Assembly (NCBI GenBank): GCA_964424265.1
Contig: CAYRHX010000002.1
Coordinates: 3,345-67,344, forward strand
DNA from: an uncultured Candidatus Saccharibacteria bacterium
GTDB taxonomy: Bacteria > Patescibacteriota > Minisyncoccia > Phycocordibacterales > UBA2100
Direction of reading: 5' to 3'
Length of the DNA stretch: 64,000 nucleotides
In this document: positions 4,667 through 63,958 of the stretch, piece after piece
Numbering within the stretch: position 1 is the first letter of the stretch
Layout of the letters: each line of letters opens with the position of its first letter
Notes under the pieces: generated by a model
The model's input: the letters and a program-made list of their open reading frames with translations, nothing else
Told to the model about the DNA's origin: nothing
Databases searched by the model: none
Translations under genes and position numbers: made by a program

Positions 4667-6808
4667 CTACTTCCTCGCAGCAATCACCGCATCTGCCGCA
4701 GTCTTGGGAACAATCGCGTAATGAGAAAATTCAAGGTTCGGGACGCCGCGGCCCTCGGTCGCGGAACGAAGCTGAGTTGTGAATCCGAAAAGCTCTGAAA
4801 GAGGCACCTTTGCTGTGATGACACGAGCTTGGCCGCGCTCCCCCATTGCTTCGATCGAGCCACGCTTTGCGTTGATCATACCGGTCACATCACCCATAAA
4901 TTTCTCCGGCACTACCACTTCCAACTTCATGATCGGTTCGAGAATGACGGGTCGCGCTTTCGCCATCGCCTCTTGCATAGCGTTGATGGCGGCGAGTTTG
5001 AAGGCGATTTCTGAAGAGTCCACATCGTGCGCAGAGCCGTCATAGAGCTCGACGGAAATATCGACGACGGGGAATCCAGCCTGAATGCCGCGCTCCATCG
5101 CTTCGATAAGGCCCTTTTTCACGGGCTGGATGAATTCCTGTGGAATAACTCCTCCTTTGATGTTGTTGATGAATTCAAAGTGATCCTCTCGCTCGACATT
5201 GTTTTTGATTTTCTTCCCTTCTTCCAGCGGCTCGAGCGGCTTCACGCGGATTTTCACGTGACCGTACTGACCACGGCCACCCGTCTGCTTGATGTGTTTG
5301 TATTCCACATCTGCGGTGCCTTGAATCGTCTCGCGATATGCAACCTGCGGCTTCCCTGTCGTCGCCTGGACGCCAAACTCTCGCTTCATACGATCCACGA
5401 TGATCTCGAGGTGCAGCTCGCCCATGCCCGAGACGATGGTTTCCATGGTTTCAGGGTCGGATTTGATGCGGAAGGTAGGATCTTCGTCGGATAGTTTGGA
5501 GAGTGCCATACCCATCTTTTCTTGGTCGGCTTTTGTGTTGGGCTCGATACGCATCGAGACCACCGGCTCCGGAAAGACGATCGATTCGAGTGCAATCGGA
5601 TGCGCTGCGTCGCAAAGCGTGTGGCCGATCTTCACCTCTTTCATACCGACGGCAGCCGCAATTTCACCGGCGTAGACGATTTTCACGTCTTCACGCTTGT
5701 CGGCCTGGAGCCGCACGATGCGGCCTACGCGCTCTTTTTTGTTGTTGGCAGAGTCGTAGATCGTCTGCCCCGCTTCAAAACTTCCGGAATACACGCGGAA
5801 GAATGAAAGCTGCCCAACGAAAGGATCGGTCTGGATTTTGAATACAAGCGCCGAAAACGGGGCTTCATCCGATGCGGGGCGTGTGTCCTCTTCGCCCGTG
5901 TCAGTATTTATCCCTTTGGCTGGTGGCATATCCAAGGGTGACGGAAGGTAATCGACGACCGCATCAAGCACGAGCTGCACTCCCTTGTTTTTGAGTGAAG
6001 ATCCGGTGAGCACAGGGAAGATCTTGTTCTCAATGACGCCCTTGCGGAGCGTTTCCTGAAGAACTTTGGTAGAGATTTCTTTACCATCCAAAAAATCTGC
6101 CATCACCGCATCGTCATTCTCGACAATGCGCTCAACGAGCTCATCGTGATACTTCTTTGCTTCGGCCTTCATGTGTTCGGGAATATCGTATGGAACAACA
6201 TTCTTACCCATCTCGCCTTCAAATTTGTACGCCTTCATGTGCAGCAGGTCGATGATTCCCTCAAATTTGTCTTCGAGACCGATAGGAATCTGCAGTCGCA
6301 CGGCTTTAGAGGAAAGACGGTCGAGAATGGATGCGTATGACTTTTCAAATGACGCGCCGGTGCGGTCGAGTTTGTTGATATAACAAATGCGCGGCACGTT
6401 GGCCTCCTCCGCATAACGCCAGTTGGTCTCAGACTGCGGCTCGACGCCAGCGACGCCGTCGAACACTACAACCGCGCCATCCAAGACACGCATCGAACGC
6501 TTCACTTCTGAAGTGAAGTCGATGTGTCCGGGGGTGTCGATGATGTTGAAGCGGACCTTTTTCGAGAGATCAGCGCCCATGTAGGTCGGGTTCCAGAAAC
6601 ATGTGATCGCAGCGGCCGTGATCGTGATGCCGCGCTCGCGCTCCTGCTCCATCCAGTCCGTGACCGTATTGCCCTCGTGCACTTCGCCGATCTTGTGCGA
6701 CTCGCCGGTGTAGTAGAGGATGCGCTCAGACGTGGTTGTCTTCCCCGCATCGACGTGCGCAACGATGCCGAAATTTCGTACTTTCTCTAATTGATAGTCT
6801 CGTGCCAT
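4667..6808 (-). CDS. fusA: Translation elongation factor G
   Basis: MARDYQLEKVRNFGIVAHVDAGKTTTSERILYYTG... is full-length EF-G. The track ORF extends 22 codons upstream (to 6874); the Met at MARDY is the likely start. Confidence 0.95.
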   Translation of the reverse strand: MARDYQLEKVRNFGIVAHVDAGKTTTSERILYYTGESHKIGEVHEGNTVTDWMEQERERGITITAAAITCFWNPTYMGADLSKKVRFNIIDTPGHIDFTSEVKRSMRVLDGAVVVFDGVAGVEPQSETNWRYAEEANVPRICYINKLDRTGASFEKSYASILDRLSSKAVRLQIPIGLEDKFEGIIDLLHMKAYKFEGEMGKNVVPYDIPEHMKAEAKKYHDELVERIVENDDAVMADFLDGKEISTKVLQETLRKGVIENKIFPVLTGSSLKNKGVQLVLDAVVDYLPSPLDMPPAKGINTDTGEEDTRPASDEAPFSALVFKIQTDPFVGQLSFFRVYSGSFEAGQTIYDSANNKKERVGRIVRLQADKREDVKIVYAGEIAAAVGMKEVKIGHTLCDAAHPIALESIVFPEPVVSMRIEPNTKADQEKMGMALSKLSDEDPTFRIKSDPETMETIVSGMGELHLEIIVDRMKREFGVQATTGKPQVAYRETIQGTADVEYKHIKQTGGRGQYGHVKIRVKPLEPLEEGKKIKNNVEREDHFEFINNIKGGVIPQEFIQPVKKGLIEAMERGIQAGFPVVDISVELYDGSAHDVDSSEIAFKLAAINAMQEAMAKARPVILEPIMKLEVVVPEKFMGDVTGMINAKRGSIEAMGERGQARVITAKVPLSELFGFTTQLRSATEGRGVPNLEFSHYAIVPKTAADAVIAARK

Positions 6809-6904
6809 ATTTTCTTTAAACAAAAACGCGCTGTGCGCGTCCAAGTAATGTAGCGGAAATTTAGAAAAAAGCAATCATTAAGCGGTGATTGGATACCCAG
6901 GCCG

Positions 6905-7165
6905 CTAATCGTAAATAGTGTGATCGCCGACGATGTGGAGTAGGGCTTCGCCACCAGCAACCCACTCGAACTTGATGCGGTTTTTACGATCGATCCAGAA
7001 GCCTAAGAACCCCTTATATTTACCGTGCAATTTATGTACTTTGAGCCTCTGGTGATTACTTCTATCCCTGAACAACTCGATTTTCTGGAATGCGTCCTCC
7101 TGTAGTTGCGGAGGAAGCTTCTTCAAACTTCGGAAGAACGCCGGCGTAAACCCAACGGTGACCAT
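6905..7165 (-). CDS. Type II toxin, RelE/ParE superfamily
   Basis: 86 aa; ...HKLHGKYKGFLGFWIDRKNRIKFEW..LLHIVGDHTIYD matches the RelE/ParE fold signature; immediately downstream of a small RHH gene with a 4-nt gap. Confidence 0.7.
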   Translation of the reverse strand: MVTVGFTPAFFRSLKKLPPQLQEDAFQKIELFRDRSNHQRLKVHKLHGKYKGFLGFWIDRKNRIKFEWVAGGEALLHIVGDHTIYD

Positions 7166-7499: not shown

Positions 7500-7547
7500 T
7501 TACCACGCAAAGTGGGCGAAGGCTTTGTTGGCTTCGGCTAGGCAGGC
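7500..7547 (-). repeat. Duplicated copy of the rpsG 3' end (encodes ...AEANKAFAHFAW*), direct repeat of 8574..8621
   Basis: ttaccacgcaaagtgggcgaaggctttgttggcttcggc is about 90% identical to the true rpsG 3' end ttaccacgcgaagtgggcgaaggccttgttggcttcggc; in frame behind the stop of the 317-aa ORF. Confidence 0.75.
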
Positions 7548-8573: not shown

Positions 8574-9035
8574 TTACCACGCGAAGTGGGCGAAGGCCTT
8601 GTTGGCTTCGGCCATGCGGTGCGTCGTCTCTTTCTTCGTGGCAGCAGCGCCTTCACCCTTGTGTGCGGCCCTCAATTCGGCGAGGAGACTCTCGTGCATG
8701 GGCTTGCCCTTGGTGCCCTCAGCCGCTTCTACGATCCAGCGCATACCGAGTGAGAGCTTGCGATTGGGATTCACTTCGCGAGGCACCTGGTAGTTGGCGC
8801 CACCGACGCGGCGTGAGCGTACTTCCACGGAAGGAGATGCCTTCTCAAGCGCCTCTTCGAGGAAGGTGACAGGATCGCCATCTTTCTTCAGCTCATCCAT
8901 CACTTTGTAGACAATCTTGCGGGCAGTATCTTTCTTGCCGCGCTCCATGACGTAGTTGATGAGCTTCGCAACCTTAAAAGATCCGTACACTTCGTCCGGC
9001 TGAGGCTGCATTCTATTTTTTACGGGTCGTCGCAT
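8574..9035 (-). CDS. rpsG: 30S ribosomal protein S7
   Basis: MRRPVKNRMQPQPDEVYGSFKVAKLINYVMERGKKDTARKIVY... is canonical S7. Confidence 0.95.
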   Translation of the reverse strand: MRRPVKNRMQPQPDEVYGSFKVAKLINYVMERGKKDTARKIVYKVMDELKKDGDPVTFLEEALEKASPSVEVRSRRVGGANYQVPREVNPNRKLSLGMRWIVEAAEGTKGKPMHESLLAELRAAHKGEGAAATKKETTHRMAEANKAFAHFAW

Positions 9036-13657: not shown

Positions 13658-15138
13658 CATTTACGCAACCACAACCACGCGACGCCCAAGAGTATGTACG
13701 CCCCAAGCATCCACCATGCACTGAAGGCAGGAATCGAGACAGCCGCAAAAGGGAGCGCTGCGAAGGACTGCGCAACGGCGATGATGTACCAAAGCAGTGC
13801 GTACGCTGGCGCCGCGAGAGGAAGCGCATACGAGCCAAACATCATTCCACCCAGTGCCGCAACGAACGACGCGCCCATCGCGTAGGGCACCGCCACGAGT
13901 GCGAGCAGATTGGCGGGCAGTGCAACCAAGGAAAAGAGTCCATTTTGAAAAAGGAGGAGGGGTAAAACTGTGATCTGTGTGGCGACGGTAGACGAGAAAA
14001 TTTCCCGCAAGCCAAATTTTTCTGGCATCCATACGAGTCGCGCTGACAAGGGCTCCGTAAAAAGAATGAGACCGAGTGTTGCGAGTATCGACAACTGGAA
14101 TCCTGGGTCAAAAGCGAGGTACAGCGGATTCCACGCTACCATCCCAAGCGCGACCACACCCAAAATACGGAGAGCTAAGAAGGTGCGCGCCGTCGCACGC
14201 GCGTAGACCGCAATCATGGACATAGCGCCGGCGCGCACCGCGCTCGGAGCTCCGCCCGTCATCAAGACGACAAAAAGCACCGCCGAGGCAATCCCCCCAT
14301 ACTGGACAACTCTGGGAAGAAAGACGAGTCCCCGGCGCACCATGTTGATGACAATAGTGATGTTGTATCCCGAAAGCACCACGACGTGAATGAGAGAAGC
14401 GGTTTTGAACACTTCGGAAAGCTCTTTCCCGATCGAACGTTTGTCACCGACGGTGATTCCCCCCGCAAGTCCTGATTCGGGCTCCGGCAGGACCGCTTGG
14501 AGCCCTGCGAGAAATGTATGCTTCACCGCGATCGCGGATGCTTGCAATATATTGCCGTGATTTTCACCGAGTGATTCCGCCTCGGCGGAGATGAGCATGT
14601 ATCCGATCCCATCTTTTGCGAGAAACATCGGATAATTAAATTGTCGACCCTCGCTCGTACCAAACGATTCGGGTAGTTCGAGGACCCCTTCCACTCGCAC
14701 GGTATCGCCATATGCGATCTTCGTGTGCGCCGGGACCACGGCGAGGATGCCTGTGCGCACGGACACCGACGTACTTCCGACGAGAAGCGCCGTGACGTCG
14801 ACATGTACACGGATGTTGGATTCTCGCACATCAAGGTCACCCACAACCACCCCTTCGACAACGACTTTTGTATTCAAACGCTCATCGAGCACAGAATCCC
14901 CCATCGAGGCCACGCTCGCCACACGCAGCGCACCGAGAGCAAATGCGCACAATGCGATCACAATGAAGATAGAACGACGTACTCCTGATTTCTCAAGCCA
15001 TGAGATGAGCAGCGTGACGAGTGCGAGCAATAAAAGGAAGACGAGCGTGGCAAAGCCGATGAAGAAAAAGGAGCTCACGAAAACGCCGGAAAGAAATCCG
15101 ACGATAACAGCCCACACGATGTGCGTGACCATCGACAC
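13657..15138 (-). CDS. comEC: ComEC/Rec2 N-terminal channel part (DUF4131 + Competence domain), lacks the lactamase domain
   Basis: 493-aa polytopic membrane protein, ...VVLSGYNITIVINMVRRGL...; domain recognition by eye. Confidence 0.75.
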   Translation of the reverse strand: MSMVTHIVWAVIVGFLSGVFVSSFFFIGFATLVFLLLLALVTLLISWLEKSGVRRSIFIVIALCAFALGALRVASVASMGDSVLDERLNTKVVVEGVVVGDLDVRESNIRVHVDVTALLVGSTSVSVRTGILAVVPAHTKIAYGDTVRVEGVLELPESFGTSEGRQFNYPMFLAKDGIGYMLISAEAESLGENHGNILQASAIAVKHTFLAGLQAVLPEPESGLAGGITVGDKRSIGKELSEVFKTASLIHVVVLSGYNITIVINMVRRGLVFLPRVVQYGGIASAVLFVVLMTGGAPSAVRAGAMSMIAVYARATARTFLALRILGVVALGMVAWNPLYLAFDPGFQLSILATLGLILFTEPLSARLVWMPEKFGLREIFSSTVATQITVLPLLLFQNGLFSLVALPANLLALVAVPYAMGASFVAALGGMMFGSYALPLAAPAYALLWYIIAVAQSFAALPFAAVSIPAFSAWWMLGAYILLGVAWLWLRK

Positions 15139-15166
15139 AGCGTATCAAACAAATCCCGCGCGAATC

Positions 15167-15316
15167 TAGAGCACGTTTGAAAACGCTTAACCGGAGTGAG
15201 GGGCGGCATTCCCGAGGAATCCCCGCAGTACGAAGAGTGCGAGGATTGAGGATTTTCCAGCAGGAAAATCCGGGTTCCGAGGGAATACCGCCTCGGAGCA
15301 GAGGTTTTCAAATATG
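15167..15316 (+). mobile_element. MITE-like ~147-bp inverted-repeat element, copy 1
   Basis: TAGAGCACGTTTGAAAAC ... GTTTTCAAATATG terminal inverted repeats; internal perfect hairpin GGATTTTCC-agca-GGAAAATCC and arm pairing GGCGGCATTCCC / GGGAATACCGCC. About 90% identical to 28560..28707. Confidence 0.7.
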
Positions 15317-15318
15317 TT

Positions 15319-15633
15319 CTACAATTTCTTGATATCGAGCTTCTCCAATCGCAGCGCCTTGAACAAGGCGTACACAATGGCAGCAATAATGATGAAGTCT
15401 ATTGCATTGGAGAGAAAGGCTCCGATCTTCACCGATCCGAGTGACCAGCCTGCAAGCGAATCAGCCGATCCGATCAGCGCACCGATAATCGGATTGAGTA
15501 GATCTTGCACAAAAGATGAAACGACCTTCGAAACGGCCGTGCCCAGAATGAATCCTATGGCGAGCCCCATCACGCCCTGTTCCCGTATGAAATTGATGAA
15601 GCCCTGGAATGACCCAACGATATGATCTTGCAT
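15319..15633 (-). CDS. mscL: Large-conductance mechanosensitive channel
   Basis: MQDHIVGSFQGFINFIREQGVMGLAIGFILGTA... is canonical MscL. Confidence 0.85.
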   Translation of the reverse strand: MQDHIVGSFQGFINFIREQGVMGLAIGFILGTAVSKVVSSFVQDLLNPIIGALIGSADSLAGWSLGSVKIGAFLSNAIDFIIIAAIVYALFKALRLEKLDIKKL

Positions 15634-15644
15634 GCTTATTTCTA

Positions 15645-16061
15645 CTATGATTCTTGCGCCTCGTCCATCGCCTCATTCGCGAGTCGATCGGCAACCGTAT
15701 TCTCCTCACGCGGTACGTATACAAATTTGATGCGCAAAAAATCCGCGGAGATCATCGCTCGCACTTTTGCATGCTGCAATTTCAATGCAGGTTCTTTTAT
15801 CTTCCAATGACCTGAGATTTGCTCAACGATAAGTTTGCTGTCGGCACGAACTTCGATCTCACGATCTTCTAAACCCATTTTTTTTGCTTCCCTGAGTGCG
15901 AGCACCACCGCCTCATACTCTGCCCAATTGTTAGTCTGCTCTCCCAAATACTTTTTCACTTCCGCGAGCACGCGCTCCCCCTCTAAAATCACCGCGCCCG
16001 CGCCCGCGGGCCCAGGATTATTTCGAGCGCCGCCGTCGGTGTATATGATTACTTTCGACAC
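15645..16061 (-). CDS. rnhA: Ribonuclease HI
   Basis: IIYTDGGARNNPGPAGAGAVI...NNWAEYEAVVLAL...ENTVADRLANEAMD has the RNase H catalytic residues. Confidence 0.9.
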   Translation of the reverse strand: MSKVIIYTDGGARNNPGPAGAGAVILEGERVLAEVKKYLGEQTNNWAEYEAVVLALREAKKMGLEDREIEVRADSKLIVEQISGHWKIKEPALKLQHAKVRAMISADFLRIKFVYVPREENTVADRLANEAMDEAQES

Positions 16062-25630: not shown

Positions 25631-25700
25631 TTTGCGATTGTACCACGTGTGACAATTCTCAAGAATCAGACGCCAATATCACTGGTATACTACTGAGAAC

Positions 25701-26177
25701 ATGAGCTACACGAAGCGCGGTGCACGCGCTGGCGTATCGCTAATAGAGATTTTGATGGTAATCGCCATTTTTTTGGTGCTTTTCGTACTGACCACACGCT
25801 CCTTCAGCACAACGAACGCAAGCAAGGCACTCGATACGGAGGCACAGCATATCGTCGCCGAACTCAACAGGGCCAGATCATTGACACTCTCGTCGAAAAA
25901 TTCCCAGCAATATGGTATTCATTTTGCGACCACGAGCATTACGTTATTTCAGAGCGCGACGTATGAAGTCGGAAGCTCAACAAACGACACTGTATTCCTT
26001 CGCACACTCATACAAGTAGCCTCTACGAGCTTCGCGGGAGGAGGGTCCAACGTCGTTTTCGAGCGACTCACGGGAAAGACGACACAAAATGGCACAGTCA
26101 CACTTTCTTTGAGATCTGACGCGTCACGTACAAAGACTGTCACCATATATGCAACTGGTCTCGTTGAAACACAATGA
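25701..26177 (+). CDS. Type IV pilin-like protein (prepilin N-terminal methylation motif)
   Basis: MSYTKRGARAG|VSLIEILMVIAIFLVL... with Glu at +5. Confidence 0.75.
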   Translation: MSYTKRGARAGVSLIEILMVIAIFLVLFVLTTRSFSTTNASKALDTEAQHIVAELNRARSLTLSSKNSQQYGIHFATTSITLFQSATYEVGSSTNDTVFLRTLIQVASTSFAGGGSNVVFERLTGKTTQNGTVTLSLRSDASRTKTVTIYATGLVETQ

Positions 26178-26680
26178 GTATGCAAACACCTCGATCAATA
26201 CGTGGATTTAGCCAAGCGCAACGTGGAACCATGTTGATTGAGTCTGTGGTCGGGATCGGCATCGCGCTAATTACCCTCGTGGGCACGATGTCGGCGTTTT
26301 CCTATCTCTACCGCGCTTCAGTCAACAATATATTGACGGTGCAGGCAGCCTTTCTCGAAGAAGAGGGCCTCGAGGCCGCGCGCATCATGCGCGACAATGC
26401 CTGGAGCAATATCTCCTCGCAAACATCAGGCGCGAGTGTGTATCTTCAATTCAATGGGACAACATGGGCCACAAGCACCAACAATACATTTATCGACGGC
26501 ACGTTTGAACGTAAGGTCGTGTTTACAAATGTGTACCGAGATGCCAATCAAAACATTGCCCCCACGGGCACACTCGACGCCAATATCAAAAAGGTGACCG
26601 TCTCAATATCGTGGCGCGATCACGGCGCGACGACCACACGGTCGCTTGTCACCTATCTTGCAAACGTATTTAACGAATGA
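26174..26680 (+). CDS. Type IV pilin/pseudopilin-like protein
   Basis: ...QRG|TMLIESVVGIGIALITL...; translationally coupled to the previous gene. Confidence 0.7.
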   Translation: MSMQTPRSIRGFSQAQRGTMLIESVVGIGIALITLVGTMSAFSYLYRASVNNILTVQAAFLEEEGLEAARIMRDNAWSNISSQTSGASVYLQFNGTTWATSTNNTFIDGTFERKVVFTNVYRDANQNIAPTGTLDANIKKVTVSISWRDHGATTTRSLVTYLANVFNE

Positions 26681-27219
26681 GTATGAACACAAAGAAACAC
26701 AGGAAGGCTGGCGCGAGTGGAGCCACCATGATCGAGATGCTCGTCTATATATTTATCCTTGTCCTTCTCGTGTCCGCTGTGATCTATACGCTCTTAACGC
26801 TCGGCAATCTCTATCGATCGATCAAGGCGACGGCAGGGATCAAAGCGGCGGCAAACGTCGCGCTTGAACGAATGACGCGAGAAATCCGCGGAGCAACGAG
26901 TATAGATACGGCAAACAGCATTCTCAACGCCTCCCCCGGCAAGGTCACTCTCAATACACTCGATCAAGATGGGGCAACAACGACCGTGGAGTTTCTTATG
27001 ATCGGAAACACACCGCACATTAAAGAAGCGGGGGTAGACATGGGTCCGCTCTCGGGCACAGGTGTACGGGTGACAAGCTTGATTTTCCGGTCAATCACTG
27101 CGGCTCGATCTCAGGGAGTCAAGATCGAAATGCACATCGAGAGCGGCAGCGGCAAGAGTTACAAGACGGAGTCATTCTATGCAACGGCCGTGCTGCGCGG
27201 CTCATACCCCATTCAATAA
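26677..27219 (+). CDS. Type IV pilin/pseudopilin-like protein
   Basis: ...SG|ATMIEMLVYIFILVLL... Confidence 0.7.
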   Translation: MSMNTKKHRKAGASGATMIEMLVYIFILVLLVSAVIYTLLTLGNLYRSIKATAGIKAAANVALERMTREIRGATSIDTANSILNASPGKVTLNTLDQDGATTTVEFLMIGNTPHIKEAGVDMGPLSGTGVRVTSLIFRSITAARSQGVKIEMHIESGSGKSYKTESFYATAVLRGSYPIQ

Positions 27220-27221
27220 GT

Positions 27222-28562
27222 ATGAAAAGCACATTTCACATACAACGTTCGAGACATAAGGAAAGCCGGGGGCAGATCTTGATATTAACGCTCGTATTGT
27301 TTGCCGCTATCGCGGTAACTGCAGTCACGGGGGTTTCCGCACCAATTCTCCGCGAAATCCGCATTGGTAAAGATTTGCAACTCTCCAAACAAAGCTATTA
27401 CACCGCGGAGGCAGGGAGCGAGGACGCATACCATCGCATACGCAGCAACCTTGCCACATCGTTCCCCTCGACCCTCGCGGTAGGCGGCGCAACGACCACC
27501 ATTACTCTCTCCACCATCGACCTATCGAATCAGGAGATCGTCTCCGTCGGCAACATGAATAATCACATACGAACCATCGTAAAAGAAATCACGGTCACTG
27601 ACGGATTCGACTTCAACTTTGCGCTTCAAACAGGCGTGGGCGGTATATCCATGAGTAACAACGCGAGTGTAAACGGCAACGTTTATTCAAGCGGACCGGT
27701 GACGAGCACCAATTCAAATTCAAACCAATATAATTACGTCCATGGGGCTATCGTTTCTGCCGGACCAACCGGGCTTGTGCATCAGATACACTCCACAAGC
27801 AGTGTCTATGCGCACACTATTACCAATTCCACGATTGATAAAGACGCGTACTACATAACCTTCGCAGGCGCCACATCGAGCGTGACCGTATCAGGGGTGA
27901 AGTATCCAAACAGCGCCGACCAACCAACCATCCCGATGCCAATATCCGATGAGCTGATCGCCTCATGGGAGACAGACGCCGTAGCAGGAGGTACCGCCAC
28001 ATGCACAAATGGCACCTACTCGATCACATCGAACGTGACGATCGGTCCAAAGAAAATACCGTGCAACCTATCGATCAGCGGCAGCGGAACCACCGTGACG
28101 CTACGGGGCGCACTCTGGGTCACGGGGAACATCACGATCGCCAACTCCTCAGTTATGAGGGTTGACGATTCTGTAGGGAACAAAAGCGTCCCCGTCATAG
28201 CGGACAAACCAGGTAACAATGCCACGAGCGCGCTTATCTCAATCAGCGGAAGCTCCAACTTCTACGGCTCCACCGGCAACTCGAGCTCATACGTGATGTT
28301 GATTTCGCAAAACAATAGCGCGGAAACAGGGGGCAACAACCTCGCGATAGACATCGTGAATGGCGCTACGGGAAACCTTCTTACGTACGCCGCGCACGGG
28401 CAGGTCCGACTCCAAAATAACGTCAACTTGCGTGAAGTAACCGCATACAAAATCACCCTTCTAAACAACGCGATCGTTAACTACTCGATTGGCCTTGCAC
28501 AGCCGTTGTTTACTTCGGGGGCAGGAGGATCGTGGAAAATTAAGAGATGGAAAGAGCGCTAG
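27222..28562 (+). CDS. Large pilin-like protein (446 aa) with N-terminal hydrophobic pilin-type helix but no Glu5; Thr/Ser/Asn/Gly-rich beta-rich body (possible minor pilin/tip protein)
   Basis: MKSTFHIQRSRHKESRG|QILILTLVLFAAIAV...; last gene of the pilin operon. Confidence 0.5.
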   Translation: MKSTFHIQRSRHKESRGQILILTLVLFAAIAVTAVTGVSAPILREIRIGKDLQLSKQSYYTAEAGSEDAYHRIRSNLATSFPSTLAVGGATTTITLSTIDLSNQEIVSVGNMNNHIRTIVKEITVTDGFDFNFALQTGVGGISMSNNASVNGNVYSSGPVTSTNSNSNQYNYVHGAIVSAGPTGLVHQIHSTSSVYAHTITNSTIDKDAYYITFAGATSSVTVSGVKYPNSADQPTIPMPISDELIASWETDAVAGGTATCTNGTYSITSNVTIGPKKIPCNLSISGSGTTVTLRGALWVTGNITIANSSVMRVDDSVGNKSVPVIADKPGNNATSALISISGSSNFYGSTGNSSSYVMLISQNNSAETGGNNLAIDIVNGATGNLLTYAAHGQVRLQNNVNLREVTAYKITLLNNAIVNYSIGLAQPLFTSGAGGSWKIKRWKER

Positions 28563-28707
28563 AGCATGTTTGAAAACGTTTAACCGGAGTGAGAGGCGGT
28601 ATTTCCGAGGAATCCCCGCAGCACGAAGATTGCGAGGATTGAGGATTTTTCAGCAGGAAAATCCGGGTTCCGAGGGAATACCGCCTCGAAGCGAAGGTTT
28701 GGAAGCA
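28560..28707 (+). mobile_element. MITE-like ~147-bp inverted-repeat element, copy 2
   Basis: TAGAGCATGTTTGAAAACG...GGATTTTTCAGCAGGAAAATCC...GGGAATACCGCC...GGTTTGGAAGCATG; begins on the stop codon of the pilin-like gene and sits between convergent gene ends. Confidence 0.7.
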
Positions 28708-28739
28708 TGCCCTAGCTGTGTCCCAATCACCGTTCCGCG

Positions 28740-29957
28740 TTAAATATTTTGTGAGAGCCCATAGATCGGCGCGATCATGGCGACCGCGAAGAAGCCTACC
28801 GCGCCGCCGATGAAGAGCATGAGGAATGGTTCGATTATGGTCGACATGTCTTTCGTATTGCGATCTACTTCGTCTTCATAAAAGATCGCTATTCGCTTCA
28901 TCATCTCGCCCACATCCCCCGTCTCTTCCCCAACAGCCATCATCTCGCCCACAAACGGAGGGTACAAATCGGGGCGACGCATAAATGCGGCCGAAAGCGG
29001 CTGGCCCGATGAAACCGAGCGCGACGCATCTTCAATGACTGCTCGAAAATACGAATTTTGCACAACATCTTTCACGATAGCGAGCGCACTTATCACATCA
29101 ACGCCCGAGGAAAGAAGCGATGCGATCGTGCGCGCGGTGCGCGCCGCGTTGACCTCGCGAACCATGTTGCCAATGAGTGGGATGTGCAAGAAGCCGAAAT
29201 CGATACTGCGACGTCCCCATGCTGTGCGCGATACGAAATAGATCGTAGCAACAAGGCCAAACACACTCCCGAAAGCGAGAAAGGTGTGCTGAGTGAGAAA
29301 ATTGCTCACCCCGATCACAAACTGTGTCGTGGCAGGTAATTCCCCACCCATTTCTTTAAACGTCGCCGCGAGAGTGGGCACTACTTGCGTCATCATGAGA
29401 TACCCAACACCAACAATTGCTACGAGAATGACGCATGGATATACGAGAGCGCCACGAATCTTTCTTTTCAAGGTATACATGCGCTCGGTTTGATCGGCAA
29501 TTACCTGAAGTGACTGCGATAACCCGCCGCTTTCTTCGCCAGCGCGCACCATGGCAACAAAAAGCCGCGAGAAGACACCCGGATTCTTTGAAAGCGCGCT
29601 GAAGAGCGTGTCTCCCCTTCGCACATCACTCGCCACTTGCGATAACGTGAGCGACATTTTCGCGTTCTTCGTCTGCCGCTCCATGAGCGCAAGCGCTCGC
29701 GAGAGCGAGAGACCCGCGGAAAGCATCGCGCCCAGATTTCGCGCAAAAAGGATTTTCTCATACTCAGTTACGCGCGAAAGCAGCGCGTTCCAATATGTAA
29801 GACTCAGCATGCTTCTGGCCCCCACCTCATGAATGAAGAGGAGATGGGCGCCTTCGCGTCTGATAATGTTGTAGACTTCAAAACGATCTGCAGCATCTGC
29901 GACTCCTTTGTAAATCTCACCGTCGGCCTTTTCCGCCGTGTACGTGTAATGCGCCAT
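28740..29957 (-). CDS. pilC: Type IV pilus assembly platform protein PilC (GspF family)
   Basis: 405 aa, polytopic, two T2SS-F domains (MAHYTYTAEKADGEIYKGV...). Confidence 0.9.
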   Translation of the reverse strand: MAHYTYTAEKADGEIYKGVADAADRFEVYNIIRREGAHLLFIHEVGARSMLSLTYWNALLSRVTEYEKILFARNLGAMLSAGLSLSRALALMERQTKNAKMSLTLSQVASDVRRGDTLFSALSKNPGVFSRLFVAMVRAGEESGGLSQSLQVIADQTERMYTLKRKIRGALVYPCVILVAIVGVGYLMMTQVVPTLAATFKEMGGELPATTQFVIGVSNFLTQHTFLAFGSVFGLVATIYFVSRTAWGRRSIDFGFLHIPLIGNMVREVNAARTARTIASLLSSGVDVISALAIVKDVVQNSYFRAVIEDASRSVSSGQPLSAAFMRRPDLYPPFVGEMMAVGEETGDVGEMMKRIAIFYEDEVDRNTKDMSTIIEPFLMLFIGGAVGFFAVAMIAPIYGLSQNI

Positions 29958-40587: not shown

Positions 40588-42117
40588 ATGTCACTAAAAA
40601 TCATTTTATTCCTGCTCGCCAGTGCGGGCCTTGTCGGTATCGGGATCGGATATTACCTCCGAGTTATTATTTCGTTAGGTAAACGCGGCTCAATGGAGCT
40701 CGAGATCAGGAAAATGATGCTCGACGCGGAGGAGCGTGCCAAGAAGATTTCTGAAGAGGCCGACCAGCGTGCAAAACACAAGGAGGAGCACGCGACCGAT
40801 GGATTGAAGGAGCGCGAGAAGGAGCTCAAGCAAGTGGAAGAGCGTCTCATTCGCAAAGAAGAGCTGCTCGACAAGCGTCAGACTAACCTCGATTCGGAGC
40901 AAGAATCGCTCGCGAAGAAAAACGAGGATGTGATCGCCTCGAAGGCGCGCGTTGAGGAGCTTGCCCGCGCACAGCAAGAAAAACTCGAGAAAATCGCTGG
41001 ACTTTCTGCAGAGGAAGCCAAGGCTGATCTCATAAAATCAGTCGAGAAACAATCCGAAACAGACATCGAGAGCCGCATGCGTAAGCTAGAGATCTCCGGC
41101 AACGACCAGCTCGAACATCGTGCGAAGGAAATCCTCACAACCGCAATTCATCGCCTCGGCAATTCAGTAGTCTCCGACGTCCTTGCAACGACCATTTCGC
41201 TGCCCAACGAGGAAATCAAAGGCAAAATCATCGGCAAGGAAGGTCGCAACATTCGCGCGTTTGAGCGTGCGACAGGTGTCGATGTCATCGTCGACGACAC
41301 ACCGGGCACCATCACCCTCTCTTCGTACGATCCGATCCGCCGACAGATCGCGCGCATTGCGCTCGAGAATCTGATCATCGACGGACGCATCCAACCCGCA
41401 AAGATCGAGGAGTCCGTGCAGAAAGCTGAGCAAGAAATCAACAACATCATCAAGAAAAAAGGCACCGAAGCCGCCTTCGAAGCACGCGTCACCAACCTTG
41501 ACCCCAAGCTCCTTATGATCCTCGGTCGTCTCTACTTCCGCTCGAGCTATGGGCAAAACGTCCTCGATCACTCGGTGGAAGTCGCGCACTTGGCCGGCAT
41601 GCTCGCCGCTGAGCTTGGCGCAAACGAGGCAACAGCTCGCGCAGGCGCGCTCTTCCATGACATCGGCAAAGCGGTCGACCACGAAGTGCCTGGTACGCAC
41701 GTAGAGATCGGTCGCCGCATCTTGCAGAAATTTGGCGTTGGAGAAGACGTGGTAAAGGCGATGCAAGCGCACCACGAAGAATACCCATACGAAACGCCCG
41801 AATCCATGATCGTGCAAGTAGCCGACGCGATTTCTGGCGCACGCCCTGGCGCACGCCGCGACTCAGTAGAAAACTACATCAAGCGACTCACTGAGCTCGA
41901 AGCAATCGCCAATGGCAATCCGGGCGTCGAAAAGAGCTATGCAATCGCCGCAGGACGCGAAGTCCGCGTCATTGTGAAGCCCGCTGAAATCACCGACCTC
42001 GATGCACGCAAACTCGCCCGCGACATCGCGGACAAAATAGAAAAAGACATGCAATACCCCGGAGAGATCAAGATCTCCGTCATTCGCGAAACCCGCGTGA
42101 TCGAGTACGCGAGATAG
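40588..42117 (+). CDS. rny: Ribonuclease Y
   Basis: N-terminal TM, coiled coil, KH (...IIGKEGRNIRAFERATGVDVIVDD...), HD (HSVEVAHLAGMLAAELG...ALFHDIGKAVDHE). Confidence 0.9.
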   Translation: MSLKIILFLLASAGLVGIGIGYYLRVIISLGKRGSMELEIRKMMLDAEERAKKISEEADQRAKHKEEHATDGLKEREKELKQVEERLIRKEELLDKRQTNLDSEQESLAKKNEDVIASKARVEELARAQQEKLEKIAGLSAEEAKADLIKSVEKQSETDIESRMRKLEISGNDQLEHRAKEILTTAIHRLGNSVVSDVLATTISLPNEEIKGKIIGKEGRNIRAFERATGVDVIVDDTPGTITLSSYDPIRRQIARIALENLIIDGRIQPAKIEESVQKAEQEINNIIKKKGTEAAFEARVTNLDPKLLMILGRLYFRSSYGQNVLDHSVEVAHLAGMLAAELGANEATARAGALFHDIGKAVDHEVPGTHVEIGRRILQKFGVGEDVVKAMQAHHEEYPYETPESMIVQVADAISGARPGARRDSVENYIKRLTELEAIANGNPGVEKSYAIAAGREVRVIVKPAEITDLDARKLARDIADKIEKDMQYPGEIKISVIRETRVIEYAR

Positions 42118-42601: not shown

Positions 42602-42610
42602 GCGAGTTTC

Positions 42611-42700
42611 GTAGATAAAATAGAAAAGGATGCGCAATACCCAGGAGAAATTAAAGTAAGCGTGATACGAGAGACACGGGCTATCGAGTACGCTAGATAG
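42611..42700 (+). repeat. Diverged duplicate of the rny 3' end (encodes [28 protein letters not shown]), direct repeat of 42027..42117
   Basis: About 75% nt identity and 25/28 aa identity to the true rny C-terminus; follows the hicA stop in frame. Confidence 0.75.
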
Positions 42701-43264: not shown

Positions 43265-43936
43265 TTAATGAACACCTAACACCAGATCCGACCAGGCAAG
43301 TATTTTCCTTGCCAAGAACACACCGAATCTCTTCTCGCCCAAGCCATTGACCGAGAGGTGCACCGTTCCGTGTGGAAGTTTGCCCGACTTAAACGCCTTT
43401 TTGTTTTTACGCCAATCAACTACTGTCTTTTGGAATTGGCTCATCGGAATGGTAGTCTTTTCCGACCAAAACTGCAAACTTTGTCTCTCGTTACAATCTG
43501 GATATATATGTAACCGTATCTTCAAATTATTCTTCTTGAGCCCTACGGCCTTTGTAAACCACTTGATCATGAAATTTATTATCGCTGGATTCGAGTTCAC
43601 AAACCTAATCTGCTGCGTCGACTTCGCTCCTTCCCCAATATACAGTCCGAGTCCGAGCATGAAAAGATCGCGGCGAGAAAGGTGGCCGACATCATCCTTT
43701 GCTTCTACTCGTGCGCGTTCGAGCGACTCCCTCTTCAGCTTACTCTTAGCTTCGCCAGAAGCAGCCCGAGCATTACCAATACGCTGTATCGTCTCAGTAT
43801 TAGGAATATACGGCACATCAGCGAGCCAGATAGCCAATGTGCTCTTTGATACACCCGCCACCTTCGCAATGTAATTATACGAGTGCCCATCCTTACGTAG
43901 AGCGATCGCGGTCATTCGCGCGTGGGCCTTTGTCAT
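43265..43936 (-). CDS. HTH-domain protein with LAGLIDADG-like motif (possible free-standing homing-endonuclease-like gene)
   Basis: N-terminal HTH (ALRKDGHSYNYIAKVAGVSKSTLAIWL), then DLFMLGLGLYIGEGAKS...QIRFVNSNPAIINFMIKWF resembling the LAGLIDADG core plus following beta-strands; recognised by eye only. Confidence 0.4.
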   Translation of the reverse strand: MTKAHARMTAIALRKDGHSYNYIAKVAGVSKSTLAIWLADVPYIPNTETIQRIGNARAASGEAKSKLKRESLERARVEAKDDVGHLSRRDLFMLGLGLYIGEGAKSTQQIRFVNSNPAIINFMIKWFTKAVGLKKNNLKIRLHIYPDCNERQSLQFWSEKTTIPMSQFQKTVVDWRKNKKAFKSGKLPHGTVHLSVNGLGEKRFGVFLARKILAWSDLVLGVH

Positions 43937-45233: not shown

Positions 45234-46054
45234 CCGCGCCCTTCATGATTTTACGAAGGAGGGTTGCGCGCATGCTACCACAAAAAGTACGCGATACGAA
45301 AAACGGTGCGAGAATATCCGGCTGATTTGCACCTTGGCAACAAACCATTAGCGTTGCCTCTGCACCTCCACTCGCGGTTCACGTGTAACATCCAATATTC
45401 GGGACTTATCCCGTCAAGTGGGTAGTTTATCCCCACAACACTAACGAAAAAGTGTCAAAATAGTGTGCCATAATACATGACAAGACCGCCTCTTTGGACA
45501 GTGCGTGGGAGGTCGTAAAAGCAATTTGCTTTTTCCCCGTGCTTTGCCCCAATAGGCGGTCTTACCTCCTAAGTATACCCGATATTTTGGGGTTTTTGTC
45601 GAAAAACCTAGTGTTGGGGATATTCCTTTATTAGCCTTAATCTAAGCCCTAAAACATGGCGAAGAATGAAAGAACCCACCCGACCCCAGCGAAATTGGCG
45701 GCAAAAGGTCTTCGTGGGGAGCATCTGACAAAAAAAGAAAATCTCCGAGTATACGGAAGTCTTTTGACTCAGACACCCGATAAGAAACGTCGCTAGAGAC
45801 GCTTAATGCGCCTCACGGCTCTCTTAGGTATCCAACACGGCGACCCCCACGGTTTAAATCCATCGTGGGGGTTTCTGTGTGTAGAAAAGATATACCAATC
45901 TCCCTTTTCAGCTATAAAATAAGCCACAGTTTCCTGTAGGAAGGGTAACGTAAGCCCCTCAATGTCCTCATCATTGAACCACCCTAAATGACTGTAGGTG
46001 TCTATCCACTCTATACGGTATTTATACCCCTTGCGTGGGATAGTACCCCAATAT

Positions 46055-46145
46055 TCTGGTGATTAGGGCATGTTTGAAAACGCTTAACCGAGAGCGAGAG
46101 ACGGTATTCCCGAGGAATCCCCGCAGCACGAGGAGTGCGAGGTAC
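46055..46145 (+). mobile_element. MITE-like element, copy 3 (5' half only, truncated)
   Basis: TAGGGCATGTTTGAAAACGCTTAACCGAGAGCGAGAGACGGTATTCCCGAGGAATCCCCGCAGCACGAGGAGTGCGAGG then diverges; matches the left arm of copies 1 and 2. Confidence 0.6.
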
Positions 46146-46186
46146 GAACTCGATCTATTCGTCTCTAAAGGACAAGATCTTGTCCT

Positions 46187-46567
46187 TTATAGATTCCCCT
46201 CCAATGCTTGCTCAAATAGCCTACATGTGGCCGTTTTTGTGCTGTTATTAAGAATTACTCCGACCACATCAATTTGATACTCACGCTTGTCCTTTATCGT
46301 CTCCATATAGAGAGATGCTGTACGCGCGATTTTCCTCAATTTTCTAGCATCCACCAGCTCTTCCGGACGGTAATCAGGGCTTTCACGTGAAACCGTCTTT
46401 ACCTCCACAAATCTGACTACCCCATCTTTTTCACCGATAATGTCGATCTCGCCCCATTTTTTTCTATAATTCCGTACAGTTATTGTGTACCCCTTTCTCT
46501 CCAAAAATTTGCAGGCGACATCCTCGCCCGCGCTTCCGACCTCCTTACGTGCGTAGCCATCGATCAT
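46187..46567 (-). CDS. YraN-family (UPF0102) PD-(D/E)xK endonuclease-like protein
   Basis: ...GSAGEDVACKFLERKGYTITVRNYRKKWGEIDIIGEKDGVVRFVEVKT... Start placed at MIDGYARK; the track ORF has a 46-codon N-terminal extension (to 46705). Confidence 0.65.
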   Translation of the reverse strand: MIDGYARKEVGSAGEDVACKFLERKGYTITVRNYRKKWGEIDIIGEKDGVVRFVEVKTVSRESPDYRPEELVDARKLRKIARTASLYMETIKDKREYQIDVVGVILNNSTKTATCRLFEQALEGNL

Positions 46568-46958
46568 ATACCTCGCATTATAGTCCAAATTATAGACAGG
46601 GTTCACGTGTAACGATCTCCAGGCGTTACTTAAGAAACGTCCCCCGGCCTTGTCCTTTACGGTTTTTGCACCTTCGATCCCCAAAATACGCCCGAGATGC
46701 GTCATATTCCTGCGGGAGCGAGTGTTTCATGTCCAAATAACGACTGTTGTCCGTTATCCACATATCCACTGAGTTGTCCCCAGTTTCGCAAAAAAGCTAT
46801 GAAACGCGAGCTTAATACTATCGGAAGGAATCTCCGTTGTTTCGGACACACCAACTCACCTGTCCTATAGAAAATACGGCTTCAACAAAGGACAAATTCA
46901 CTATCTACAACACAAAATTCCCTTGACTCCAATACCATATATAGAATAGGTTTGCCGT

Positions 46959-49700: not shown

Positions 49701-50070
49701 CCCTGCTTCGCCAAAGCTACGCAGGATGCCGCTTCGCGGCAAAAGAAAATGCCGCCTCACCTGGCGACCCGTTTCTATTTTTAGGTCGCCGCCGTGAAGC
49801 GGCATTTAGTGTGTCTCCGTGCCTCTAAAAGCGACTTGAGATAATGATTTTCGGTACGTTTGCATTCAATCGATCACAGAGGTGATCGTATATATTTTAT
49901 GCGAGAGTACTTAGTATCGTTTTTACTCGTTTGCTTTTTGTGCAACGAGAGACAGAAAGAACATTCAGGAACTCTATTGAGTTCCTACAAGCAATAATAA
50001 CCTTCTATCGGACACTGTAAAGGACATGCTGGGGATAACCCTGTCCTTTATCGGACACGCCAAAAAGCGG

Positions 50071-61967: not shown

Positions 61968-62001
61968 CCTAAGTACACGGATTGTTGGTATACTATCGCG
62001 C

Positions 62002-62373
62002 ATGGATACACTCACCGAGGGGCAGTTGGAAGAATTGCGAGCATTACTCGAGGCTGAACGTGATTCTCTGGAAGAAGAGCTCGCGAATCATGGACGCATC
62101 AAGGGCGGAGACGGTGATTGGCAGGGCAGCTCGGGAGGGCTCGAGGGGATAGAGGCAGACCCTACCGACGCCGCTGATCAGATTGAAGAATTAGTGACCA
62201 ATGTGCCACTCGTCGAGGAGATGGAACGCCGCCATCGTGAAATTATGTCGGCGCTTGAGCGAATGGAGGGGAAGACATATGGGATATGCGAAGTCTCCAA
62301 AGAATCCATCCCTTTTAAACGACTCGAGGCCAATCCCGCTGCACGCACCTGCATCAAGCACGCCCAGTCTTAG
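62002..62373 (+). CDS. DksA/TraR-family-like protein (degenerate C4 zinc finger)
   Basis: Acidic coiled-coil N-terminus (QLEELRALLEAERDSLEEEL) and C-terminal ...YGICEVSKESIPFKRLEANPAARTCIKHA. Confidence 0.45.
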   Translation: MDTLTEGQLEELRALLEAERDSLEEELANHGRIKGGDGDWQGSSGGLEGIEADPTDAADQIEELVTNVPLVEEMERRHREIMSALERMEGKTYGICEVSKESIPFKRLEANPAARTCIKHAQS

Positions 62374-62389
62374 CTGTTACAATTGTGCC

Positions 62390-63958
<1,569 letters not shown>

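What the first reader, a model, noticed from the sequence alone, without database searches (positions are those of the whole stretch)
15167..15316. MITE-like ~147-bp structured repeat family, full copy 1 (three copies in window)
Near-identical elements at 15167-15316 and 28560-28707 and a truncated one at 46055-46145, all in the same orientation. Each has terminal inverted repeats (CAYGTTTGAAAAC … GTTTTCAAA), an internal perfect hairpin GGATTTTCC-AGCA-GGAAAATCC, a tandem GAGGATT-GAGGATT, and 12-bp complementary arms GGCGG(C/T)ATTCCC / GGGAATACCGCC. There is no coding capacity. The two full copies each abut a stop codon in an intergenic region (mscL|comEC and pilin|pilC). Three copies in 64 kb of a small genome implies a high-copy nonautonomous element or a structured RNA (terminator or regulatory) family.
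Basis: seen in the sequence. Interest (0 to 1): 0.65.

Follow-up and report, generated by a model that had tools for sequence, protein, structure and literature searches.

The report
MITE-like repeat carrying conserved RNA fold
A 155-bp non-coding repeat with inverted ends has spread to gene ends in this tiny Kaiserbacteria (CPR) genome, and its core is a three-armed folded motif, absent from the RNA family database, that related bacteria also keep between genes.

Summary
There are two full 155-bp copies (15167-15321, 28560-28714; 89% identical) and a truncated one (46064-46142), all in one orientation. A third full copy and a 57-nt short form lie just beyond the window on the same contig. The closest relatives lack the element at all three full-copy sites, so these are lineage-specific insertions. 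The ends are 13-19-bp inverted repeats (TAGAGCATGTTTG...), usually with TAG on both sides. The same ends bound a 62-nt element and a 26-bp palindrome in two other Kaiserbacteria. That supports the MITE reading, although no transposase was found. It is an 81-nt three-way junction that also occurs in other Parcubacteria, about one match per 100 kb of sampled DNA, often between a pilus-operon gene and tpiA. It shows strong covariation (87% of cells paired against 61% in shuffles; 28 of 30 pairs changed on both sides). A conserved U.G wobble, kept in 9 of 17 members, forms only on the window's minus strand. Rfam, plasmids, phages and the literature gave nothing. Best reading: a non-autonomous TIR element that captured a conserved structured 3'-UTR motif. 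It is a new member of a known kind.

The parts
15167..15321 (-). Full copy c1 (155 nt). It lies between the mscL stop codon (CTA at 15319-15321, which is TAG on the minus strand) and comEC.
   Evidence: The site is empty in L005, L008 and L009, where mscL and comEC abut or overlap (TAATG). Logan contig L004 ends inside it.
15207..15287 (-). Three-way-junction core of c1: inner P1, the P2 hairpin (loop UGCU) and the P3 hairpin (AUCCUCGCA...UGCGGGGAU, with a U.G wobble).
   Evidence: Covariance-model hit of 97 bits. Fold. Covariation.
15167..15185 (.). Left terminal inverted repeat of c1, TAGAGCACGTTTGAAAACG. Its partner is 15303-15321 (GGTTTTCAAATATGTTCTA).
   Evidence: The same ends bound a 62-nt element in L102 and make up the 26-bp palindrome in L038.
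15133..15166 (-). 34-nt spacer between c1 and the comEC ATG (15132-15130). It carries TGATACGCT-N6-ATG, a leaderless-promoter-like signal. Relatives lack this spacer.
   Evidence: Read from the sequence. The same TGnTAnAAT-N6-ATG layout stands before tpiA in many loci. That it is a promoter is inferred.
28560..28714 (-). Full copy c2 (155 nt), between the convergent 446-aa pilus-cluster gene (stop TAG at 28560-28562) and pilC (stop at 28740-28742).
   Evidence: The site is empty in L093 (38-nt gap) and in L005 (30-nt gap). Logan contig L087 starts inside it.
28600..28680 (-). Three-way-junction core of c2.
   Evidence: Covariance-model hit of 94.8 bits.
46064..46142 (-). Truncated copy c3. On the minus strand it keeps the P3 hairpin, the 3' strand of P1 and the outer repeat; the rest is lost. 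It lies downstream of the UPF0102 gene (46187-46705, minus strand).
   Evidence: Weak covariance-model hit at 46105-46175.

Best explanation
This is a non-autonomous, TIR-bounded intergenic repeat (MITE-like) in a Candidatus Kaiserbacteria genome.

It has two layers. The outer layer is a 13-19-bp terminal inverted repeat, TAGAGCATGTTTG(AAAAC). The inner layer is an 81-nt three-way junction made of helices P1, P2 and P3. That junction is an older, conserved structured motif of Parcubacteria.

In this lineage the composite spread to at least five sites within 72 kb. It lands at or next to TAG stop codons at the 3' ends of genes.

Inferred, not shown: a transposase acting in trans moves it, with a TA/CTAG target choice like IS630/Tc1-mariner elements. 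The element is co-transcribed as the 3' UTR of the upstream gene on the window's minus strand. There the long stem and junction act as a 3'-end structure, meaning a terminator, an insulator or a block to exonucleases, ahead of the next gene's leaderless promoter.
For: Repeat family. Three full copies, one truncated copy and one short form, 87-92% identical, lie on one contig. Three independent Logan contigs break inside copies.

Insertions. All three full-copy sites are empty in the closest relatives:
- c1: L005, L008, L009.
- c2: L093, L005.
- c4: L102, L103.
Conversely, L102 has a 62-nt TIR element at a site where the window (61968-62001) has none.

Ends. TAG stands on both sides in c1, c2, L102 and L038. 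The inferred targets are C/G-TAG-A/C.

Size classes. Elements of 26, 57, 62 and 155 nt share the same TIR.

Core.
- 86.9% of cells are paired, against 61% in shuffles and 37-54% with slid partners. 28 of 30 pairs changed on both sides.
- RNAalifold predicts the same junction independently.
- A U.G wobble in P3 is kept in 9 of 17 members. It can form only on the window's minus strand.

Position. c1, c3 and c4 follow minus-strand genes in sense orientation, and c2 is sense to pilC. In about 10 species the core sits between the stop codon of a pilus-operon gene and the tpiA promoter. L091, L094 and L096 have a classical hairpin plus T-run just upstream of the tpiA promoter.
Against: - No transposase is present in the window or in 1.5 Mb of related loci. 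The only HTH ORF (43265-43936) has a LAGLIDADG-like motif and matches IS630 only over 35 N-terminal residues.
- The left flank of c4 is CCG, not TA.
- c1 differs from the empty sites by an extra 34 nt, so it is not a clean insertion.
- The flank sequences of the empty sites are too diverged to prove a duplication.
- No T-run follows the element, and the terminator scan does not flag it.
- Two distant members (L054, L019) are antisense to their neighbouring genes.
- Three of the four single changes in the stems of the young copies are wobbles on the plus strand, not the minus strand.
- No expression data exist.
- The covariance-model alignments lean towards the model's structure. My manual alignment gave 91.6% paired against 40-54% in shifted registers.
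Confidence: 0.6

Rival explanations
1. It is a purely functional cis-acting RNA motif, such as a 3'-UTR terminator or stabiliser or a protein-binding site, and not a transposon. The 'TIRs' are only an extension of helix P1. The copies arose by recombination or duplication, and selection kept them at gene ends.
For: - The core is conserved with covariation across Parcubacteria and holds the same position next to tpiA in about 10 species.
- The core is better conserved between copies than the outer parts: about 94% against about 84% for c1 versus c2, by my count of the differences in the alignment.
- L048 sits between two convergent stop codons with U-rich tracts on both sides.
Against: - The same outer repeat bounds elements that lack the core: L102 (62 nt), c5 (57 nt) and L038 (26 bp).
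- The copies sit at unrelated loci with sharp boundaries at TAG, and relatives have empty sites.
- There is no T-run after the element.
Confidence: 0.2
2. It is a DNA-level element that is recognised as a single-stranded hairpin by an HUH/Y1 enzyme. That would make it REP/RAYT-like, or a palindrome-associated derivative of IS200/IS605. The strand bias would then come from replication.
For: - The four 155-nt-type copies (c1-c4) share one chromosomal orientation, on a stretch with uniformly falling cumulative GC skew.
- The P2 hairpin has a conserved stem and 4-nt loop.
- The long, near-perfect stems turn over in sequence between species.
Against: - No Y1/RAYT gene was seen.
- The ends are true terminal inverted repeats flanked by TA/TAG. 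IS200/IS605 derivatives typically lack both (established knowledge).
- Four out of four in one orientation is weak statistics.
Confidence: 0.1
3. It is a free-standing small RNA gene family with its own promoter.
For: The structure is strong and conserved, and Rfam has no match.
Against: Copies begin directly at the upstream gene's stop codon, which leaves no room for a promoter, and nothing terminator-like follows them.
Confidence: 0.05

Closest known systems
Correia elements (NEMIS/CREE) of Neisseria
   Same: They are 100-155 bp, have terminal inverted repeats, lie between genes, are co-transcribed with neighbouring genes and fold into long stems. Their transcripts are proposed RNase III targets (PMC2229807). 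That they insert at TA is from my own knowledge.
   Different: There is no sequence similarity. No IHF site is evident here. Correia elements number in the hundreds per genome, whereas only 5 copies in 72 kb are seen here. A Correia element is not known to have a core that other genera keep as a single-copy covarying motif.
RUP (Streptococcus pneumoniae), a MITE mobilised by IS630-Spn1
   Same: It is a small non-autonomous TIR element thought to insert at TA and to be moved in trans by an IS630-family transposase (PMC2229807). The TAG/CTAG flanks here fit that target choice.
   Different: For RUP the link rests on TIR similarity to a resident IS. Here no IS or transposase with matching ends was found, so the mechanism is only an analogy.
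ERIC/IRU and REP/BIME repeats of enterobacteria
   Same: They are imperfect palindromes in transcribed intergenic regions, often at the 3' ends of genes. ERIC affects mRNA stability when co-transcribed with its neighbours (PMC2229807).
   Different: They are different sequences and simpler hairpins. REPs are 20-40 nt and are tied to RAYT transposases. None of these has a three-way junction conserved across a class-level clade.
Rfam structured RNA families
   Same: The core is a compact three-way junction with covariation, like many cis-regulatory RNAs.
   Different: No family matches at the gathering thresholds. The E-value scan returned only three far-below-threshold eukaryotic lncRNA or sRNA matches.

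Membership tests
Bacterial MITE (miniature inverted-repeat transposable element) | Small size (under about 300 bp) and no coding capacity | tested here: met
   The element is 155 nt. By my reading, most differences between copies are non-synonymous in the one open frame. A six-frame protein search found nothing.
Bacterial MITE (miniature inverted-repeat transposable element) | Terminal inverted repeats | tested here: met
   TAGAGCAYGTTTGAAAAC pairs with GTTTTCAAAYRTGYTCTA. The match is about 15 of 19 in c1 and weaker at the right end of c2. It is 12 of 13 in L102 and perfect in L038.
Bacterial MITE (miniature inverted-repeat transposable element) | Multiple dispersed copies in one genome | tested here: met
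   Five copies at unrelated loci within 72 kb of one contig. The genome-wide count could not be obtained.
Bacterial MITE (miniature inverted-repeat transposable element) | Presence/absence polymorphism (empty sites in relatives) | tested here: met
   The c1, c2 and c4 sites are empty in L005, L008, L009, L093, L102 and L103. The L102 element's site is empty in the window.
Bacterial MITE (miniature inverted-repeat transposable element) | Target-site duplication | tested here: inconclusive
   TA(G) stands on both sides in c1, c2, L102 and L038, but the left flank of c4 is CCG. A TA duplication cannot be told apart from a TIR that includes TA, because the empty sites come from diverged species.
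Bacterial MITE (miniature inverted-repeat transposable element) | Cognate autonomous element or transposase with matching ends | tested here: not met
   None was found in the window or in 1.5 Mb of related loci. The rest of the genome could not be searched.
IS630/Tc1-mariner-mobilised MITE | Insertion at TA, often within CTAG, with TA duplication | tested here: inconclusive
   The flanks read C/G-TAG-A/C at four of the five complete TIR-bounded elements (c1, c2, L102, L038; not c4). The duplication itself is unproven.
IS630/Tc1-mariner-mobilised MITE | A resident IS630-family (DDE_3) transposase | tested here: not met
   The only weak match covers 35 residues of an HTH in ORF 43265-43936, which otherwise has a LAGLIDADG-like motif.
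Intrinsic (Rho-independent) terminator | A GC-rich hairpin followed directly by a T-run | tested here: not met
   No T-run follows c1, c2 or c4, and the scan reports no site at the elements. Failing this test lowers membership of the family. It does not exclude a role at the 3' end of transcripts.
Known Rfam RNA family | A score at or above a family's gathering threshold | tested here: not met
   The whole window gave only four tRNAs. E-value scans of c1 and of L035 gave only chance-level matches.
Diversity-generating retroelement TR/VR pair (considered) | Differences between repeats confined to adenines of one copy; a reverse transcriptase nearby | tested here: not met
   The differences are mostly C/T and G/A transitions at mixed positions. 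The window shows no reverse transcriptase: the RVT_3 match on the 138-aa RNase H gene (window 15645-16061) is an RNase H-like domain.

The most novel reading that the evidence does not exclude
The 81-nt three-way junction is a previously undescribed functional RNA class of Parcubacteria (CPR bacteria). It would act at gene 3' ends, for example as a terminator or insulator without a U-tract placed ahead of leaderless promoters, or as a docking site for a conserved protein or RNase. In this lineage it has been captured and multiplied by a TIR transposon, so that a host regulatory RNA is being spread as MITE cargo.
Probability: 0.35. Interest if true: 0.65.

Novelty: new member of a known kind. 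Interest (0 to 1): 0.5.

Why it matters
CPR/Patescibacteria genomes are small and streamlined, so a repeat family that has spread within one is worth recording. I found no paper that describes a MITE or a structured intergenic RNA in Kaiserbacteria.

This element shows that such repeats can proliferate in these genomes. It inserted between mscL and comEC, which are translationally coupled in relatives, and comEC now sits behind a new promoter-like signal.

The conserved three-way-junction core is a candidate new RNA motif for a clade in which transcription termination and 3'-end formation are unstudied. It offers a concrete, alignable target for RNA-seq or Term-seq on enrichment cultures.

In practice the element also breaks short-read assemblies: three Logan contigs end inside copies.

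Tried and rejected
- An exact-pattern scan (TTGAAAACG-N20-32-CCGAGGAATCCCC) found nothing in the representative genomes and nothing in viral contigs. It gave one chance hit inside a histidine-kinase gene in the metagenome contigs.
- A six-frame concatenated translation was searched as a protein, to catch spurious ORF calls on other copies. Nothing was found.
- Rfam gathering and E-value scans found nothing relevant.
- blastn against plasmids and phages, and a core-pattern scan of viral contigs, found nothing.
- IS630 transposase idea: ORF 43265-43936 matches only in its N-terminal HTH and carries a LAGLIDADG-like motif. Rejected.
- DGR template/variable repeat idea: rejected because the substitutions are not adenine-specific.
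- Integron attC idea (GCTTAAC fits the R'' consensus RYYYAAC): rejected because the 3' end lacks GTTRRRY, the copies are 13-17 kb apart, and there is no integrase next to them.
- Inversion of the pilus cluster as the origin of c2: rejected because c2 is antisense to the 446-aa gene, whereas the orthologous elements are sense to their upstream gene.
- Padding a manual alignment with N to force it through MAFFT failed. I counted covariation in Python instead and then used alignments made by the covariance models.
- A look-up with the maximal ORF 62201-63958 failed because the start codon was wrong. The DksA-like ORF worked.
- The second nhmmer hit in L035 (5069-5152) lies inside recJ and was dismissed as chance.

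Full report
OBSERVATION

The three sites are as described. c1 is 15167-15321 and c2 is 28560-28714. Both are 155 nt, read TAG...CTA, and are 89% identical. c3 is 46064-46142 and keeps only the plus-strand 5' half. Two element-specific words occur three times each, against 0.17-0.43 expected, and no shuffle out of 100 reached three. The named hairpin, the tandem GAGGATT and the 12-bp arms are all present. Both full copies fold far better than shuffles (z from -4.5 to -7.1). A 51-codon frame stays open across the element, but most differences between the copies are non-synonymous in it, and a six-frame protein search found nothing.

SOURCE ORGANISM

The window is identical to ENA contig ERZ27247820:k141_767014, which is 97 kb long. 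The best RecJ relatives are Candidatus Kaiserbacteria and other Parcubacteria MAGs at 74% identity or less. The species itself is not among the representative genomes, which explains why my first, strict DNA pattern found nothing there.

MORE COPIES

Reading 8 kb past the window's right end on the same contig gave a third full copy, c4. It is at L097:13722-13876, equivalent to window position 65723-65877. It has the same orientation and ends on the TAG stop codon of an M23/LysM peptidase gene. The same stretch holds a 57-nt short form, c5, at L097:12586-12642. It has the same ends and lies on the purA stop codon. The copies are 87-92% identical. Logan assemblies break inside c1, c2 and c4, as expected for a dispersed repeat.

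THE COPIES ARE INSERTIONS

- In L005, which has the same gene order, the gap between pilC and the 446-aa gene is 30 nt. mscL and comEC overlap as TAATG.
- In L093, the closest relative (PGK 87% identical), the same pilC gap is 38 nt.
- L008 and L009 also have mscL and comEC abutting.
- L102 and L103 (purA 87% and 83% identical) have no element after the peptidase gene.
- Conversely, L102 carries a 62-nt element, TAGAGCATGTTTG...CAAACACGCTCTAG, after the gene upstream of dksA. The window has nothing at that place (61968-62001).
- L038 has the two ends fused into a perfect 26-bp palindrome between convergent genes, with both stop codons embedded in it.

One TIR therefore bounds elements of 26, 57, 62 and 155 nt, which is typical of MITE families. 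TAG stands on both sides in c1, c2, L102 and L038, and the inferred targets read C/G-TAG-A/C. That resembles the TA/CTAG preference of IS630-type elements; this comparison is from my own knowledge, and for RUP it is in PMC2229807. The left flank of c4 is CCG. c1 differs from the empty sites by a further 34 nt. The empty sites are too diverged to prove a duplication. No transposase was found. The one HTH ORF (43265-43936) has a LAGLIDADG-like motif.

THE CORE IS OLDER AND CONSERVED

nhmmer and then two covariance models showed that the central 81 nt recur in other Parcubacteria. In about ten Kaiserbacteria the core sits between the stop codon of the last pilus-operon gene (C-terminus ...PPPFTP..STDY.F.LWREQ) and the tpiA promoter. 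Other members lie at these sites:
- rpsG|fusA (L052)
- alaS|tgt (L054)
- HIT|pgk (L048)
- sodA|146-aa gene (L019)
- upstream of a pilus operon (L037)

The core is a three-way junction:
- P1 is long, nearly perfect and species-specific in sequence. P1 columns are 4-67% identical between species, yet they still pair.
- P2 is an A/U-rich hairpin closed by C-G, with a loop of UGCU, UACU or AGCU.
- P3 is the third helix.

My manual alignment of 8 members gave 91.6% canonical pairs, against 40-54% in shifted registers. On the 17-member alignment made by the covariance model, 86.9% of cells are paired against 61% in shuffles. In that alignment 28 of 30 pairs changed on both sides, and the covariation score is 0.68 against 0.21, a value no shuffle out of 500 reached. 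RNAalifold predicts the same junction. The caveat is that model-made alignments lean towards the model's structure.

A U.G wobble in P3 is kept in 9 of 17 members. On the other strand it would be C.A, so the structure belongs to the window's minus strand, which is the sense strand of mscL, pilC, the UPF0102 gene and the peptidase gene.

Outside this genome the motif occurs about once per 100 kb of sampled loci, and that sample is biased towards tpiA. Here there are four core-bearing copies in 72 kb. Comparing c1 with c2, the core is better conserved (about 94%) than the outer parts (about 84%).

FUNCTION (INFERRED)

Copies start at or near the stop codon of an upstream gene in sense orientation, which leaves no room for their own promoter. 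They are therefore most likely 3' UTRs. In L091, L094 and L096 a classical hairpin plus T-run stands just upstream of the tpiA promoter. That suggests the motif fills a terminator or insulator slot ahead of leaderless promoters of the form TGnTAnAAT-N6-ATG. Several facts argue against a simple terminator:
- No T-run follows the element.
- The terminator scan does not flag it.
- Two distant members are antisense to their neighbours.

The c1 insertion split mscL from comEC, which are coupled in relatives. comEC now starts behind TGATACGCT-N6-ATG within the extra 34 nt.

COMPARISON WITH KNOWN FAMILIES

Nothing matched in Rfam, in plasmids, phages or viral contigs, or in the literature. A survey of MITEs across 183,232 genomes does not mention Patescibacteria. 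The closest analogues are Correia, RUP and ERIC/REP. They resemble it in kind, not in sequence.

VERDICT

The transposase is missing, and target-site duplication is unproven. The new point is the conserved, covarying core. I score it as a new member of a known kind, of moderate interest, with a fair chance that the core is a new CPR RNA class.

Noticed in passing
window 25631-25660 (tpiA), 61985-62004 (dksA-like), 62372-62393 (comM-like), 15130-15147 (comEC); tpiA upstream regions in most loci: Many genes start 6-7 nt after an extended -10 box (TGnTAnAAT-N6-ATG/GTG) and have no Shine-Dalgarno sequence. That implies leaderless mRNAs are common in these Parcubacteria.
   Followed up: partly
L031 about 5650-5790, L040 about 6960-7094, L050 about 6800-6936, L012 13131-13200: A second MITE-like family has inverted ends CCCGTTAGAAAT...ATTTCTAACGGG. 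In three species it sits exactly at the tpiA start codon with ATGAA repeated on both sides. In L012 it sits between mscL and comEC.
   Followed up: no
L012 3335-3440; also L006 3361-3387, L015 (three sites), L018 20901-20935: A CTAG-rich palindromic repeat (AGCTTCTAGCTGCTAGGGACTAG...) recurs in several Kaiserbacteria genomes. It is another intergenic repeat family.
   Followed up: no
window 42026-42117 and 42609-42700: The last 92 nt of the RNase Y gene, including its stop codon, are repeated 583 bp downstream at 74% identity. This looks like the scar of an insertion into the 3' end of rny. An ORF with an HTH and a LAGLIDADG-like motif (43265-43936) and a tRNA-Gly gene follow.
   Followed up: partly
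window 7500-7543 and 8574-8617: 44 nt at the 3' end of rpsG (S7) are repeated at 91% identity downstream of a 317-aa gene with no Pfam match that lies between S7 and EF-G. This suggests the gene was inserted at the rpsG end. In L052 the three-way-junction motif occupies the S7|EF-G gap.
   Followed up: no
window 45234-46060: About 830 bp between tRNA-Pro and c3 hold no ORF longer than 71 codons. That is unusual for this dense genome and may be a decayed insertion.
   Followed up: no
window 46162-46189: The palindrome TAAAGGACAAGATCTTGTCCTTTA overlaps the stop codon of the UPF0102 gene and lies about 20 nt from the truncation point of c3 (46142). Like the L038 palindrome, it is flanked by TA.
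   Followed up: no
window 49729-49802 (+): The covariance model gave a weak hit (20.9 bits) just after the CCA-adding enzyme gene. It is a long hairpin, CCGCTTCGCGGC...GCCGTGAAGCGG, with an internal branch, and may be another 3'-end structure or a very diverged relative.
   Followed up: partly
window 25701-28562 compared with L090, L091 and L006: The pilin-like cluster between pilC and tpiA is on the opposite strand and consists of different proteins in this genome, in L005 and in L093, compared with other Kaiserbacteria. This is a cluster replacement or an inversion.
   Followed up: partly
L103 15593-17012 and L104 6121-7540: A relative carries a gene with a CD-NTase C-terminal domain (CBASS-like) plus a 176-aa partner near purA. 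The window genome lacks both.
   Followed up: no
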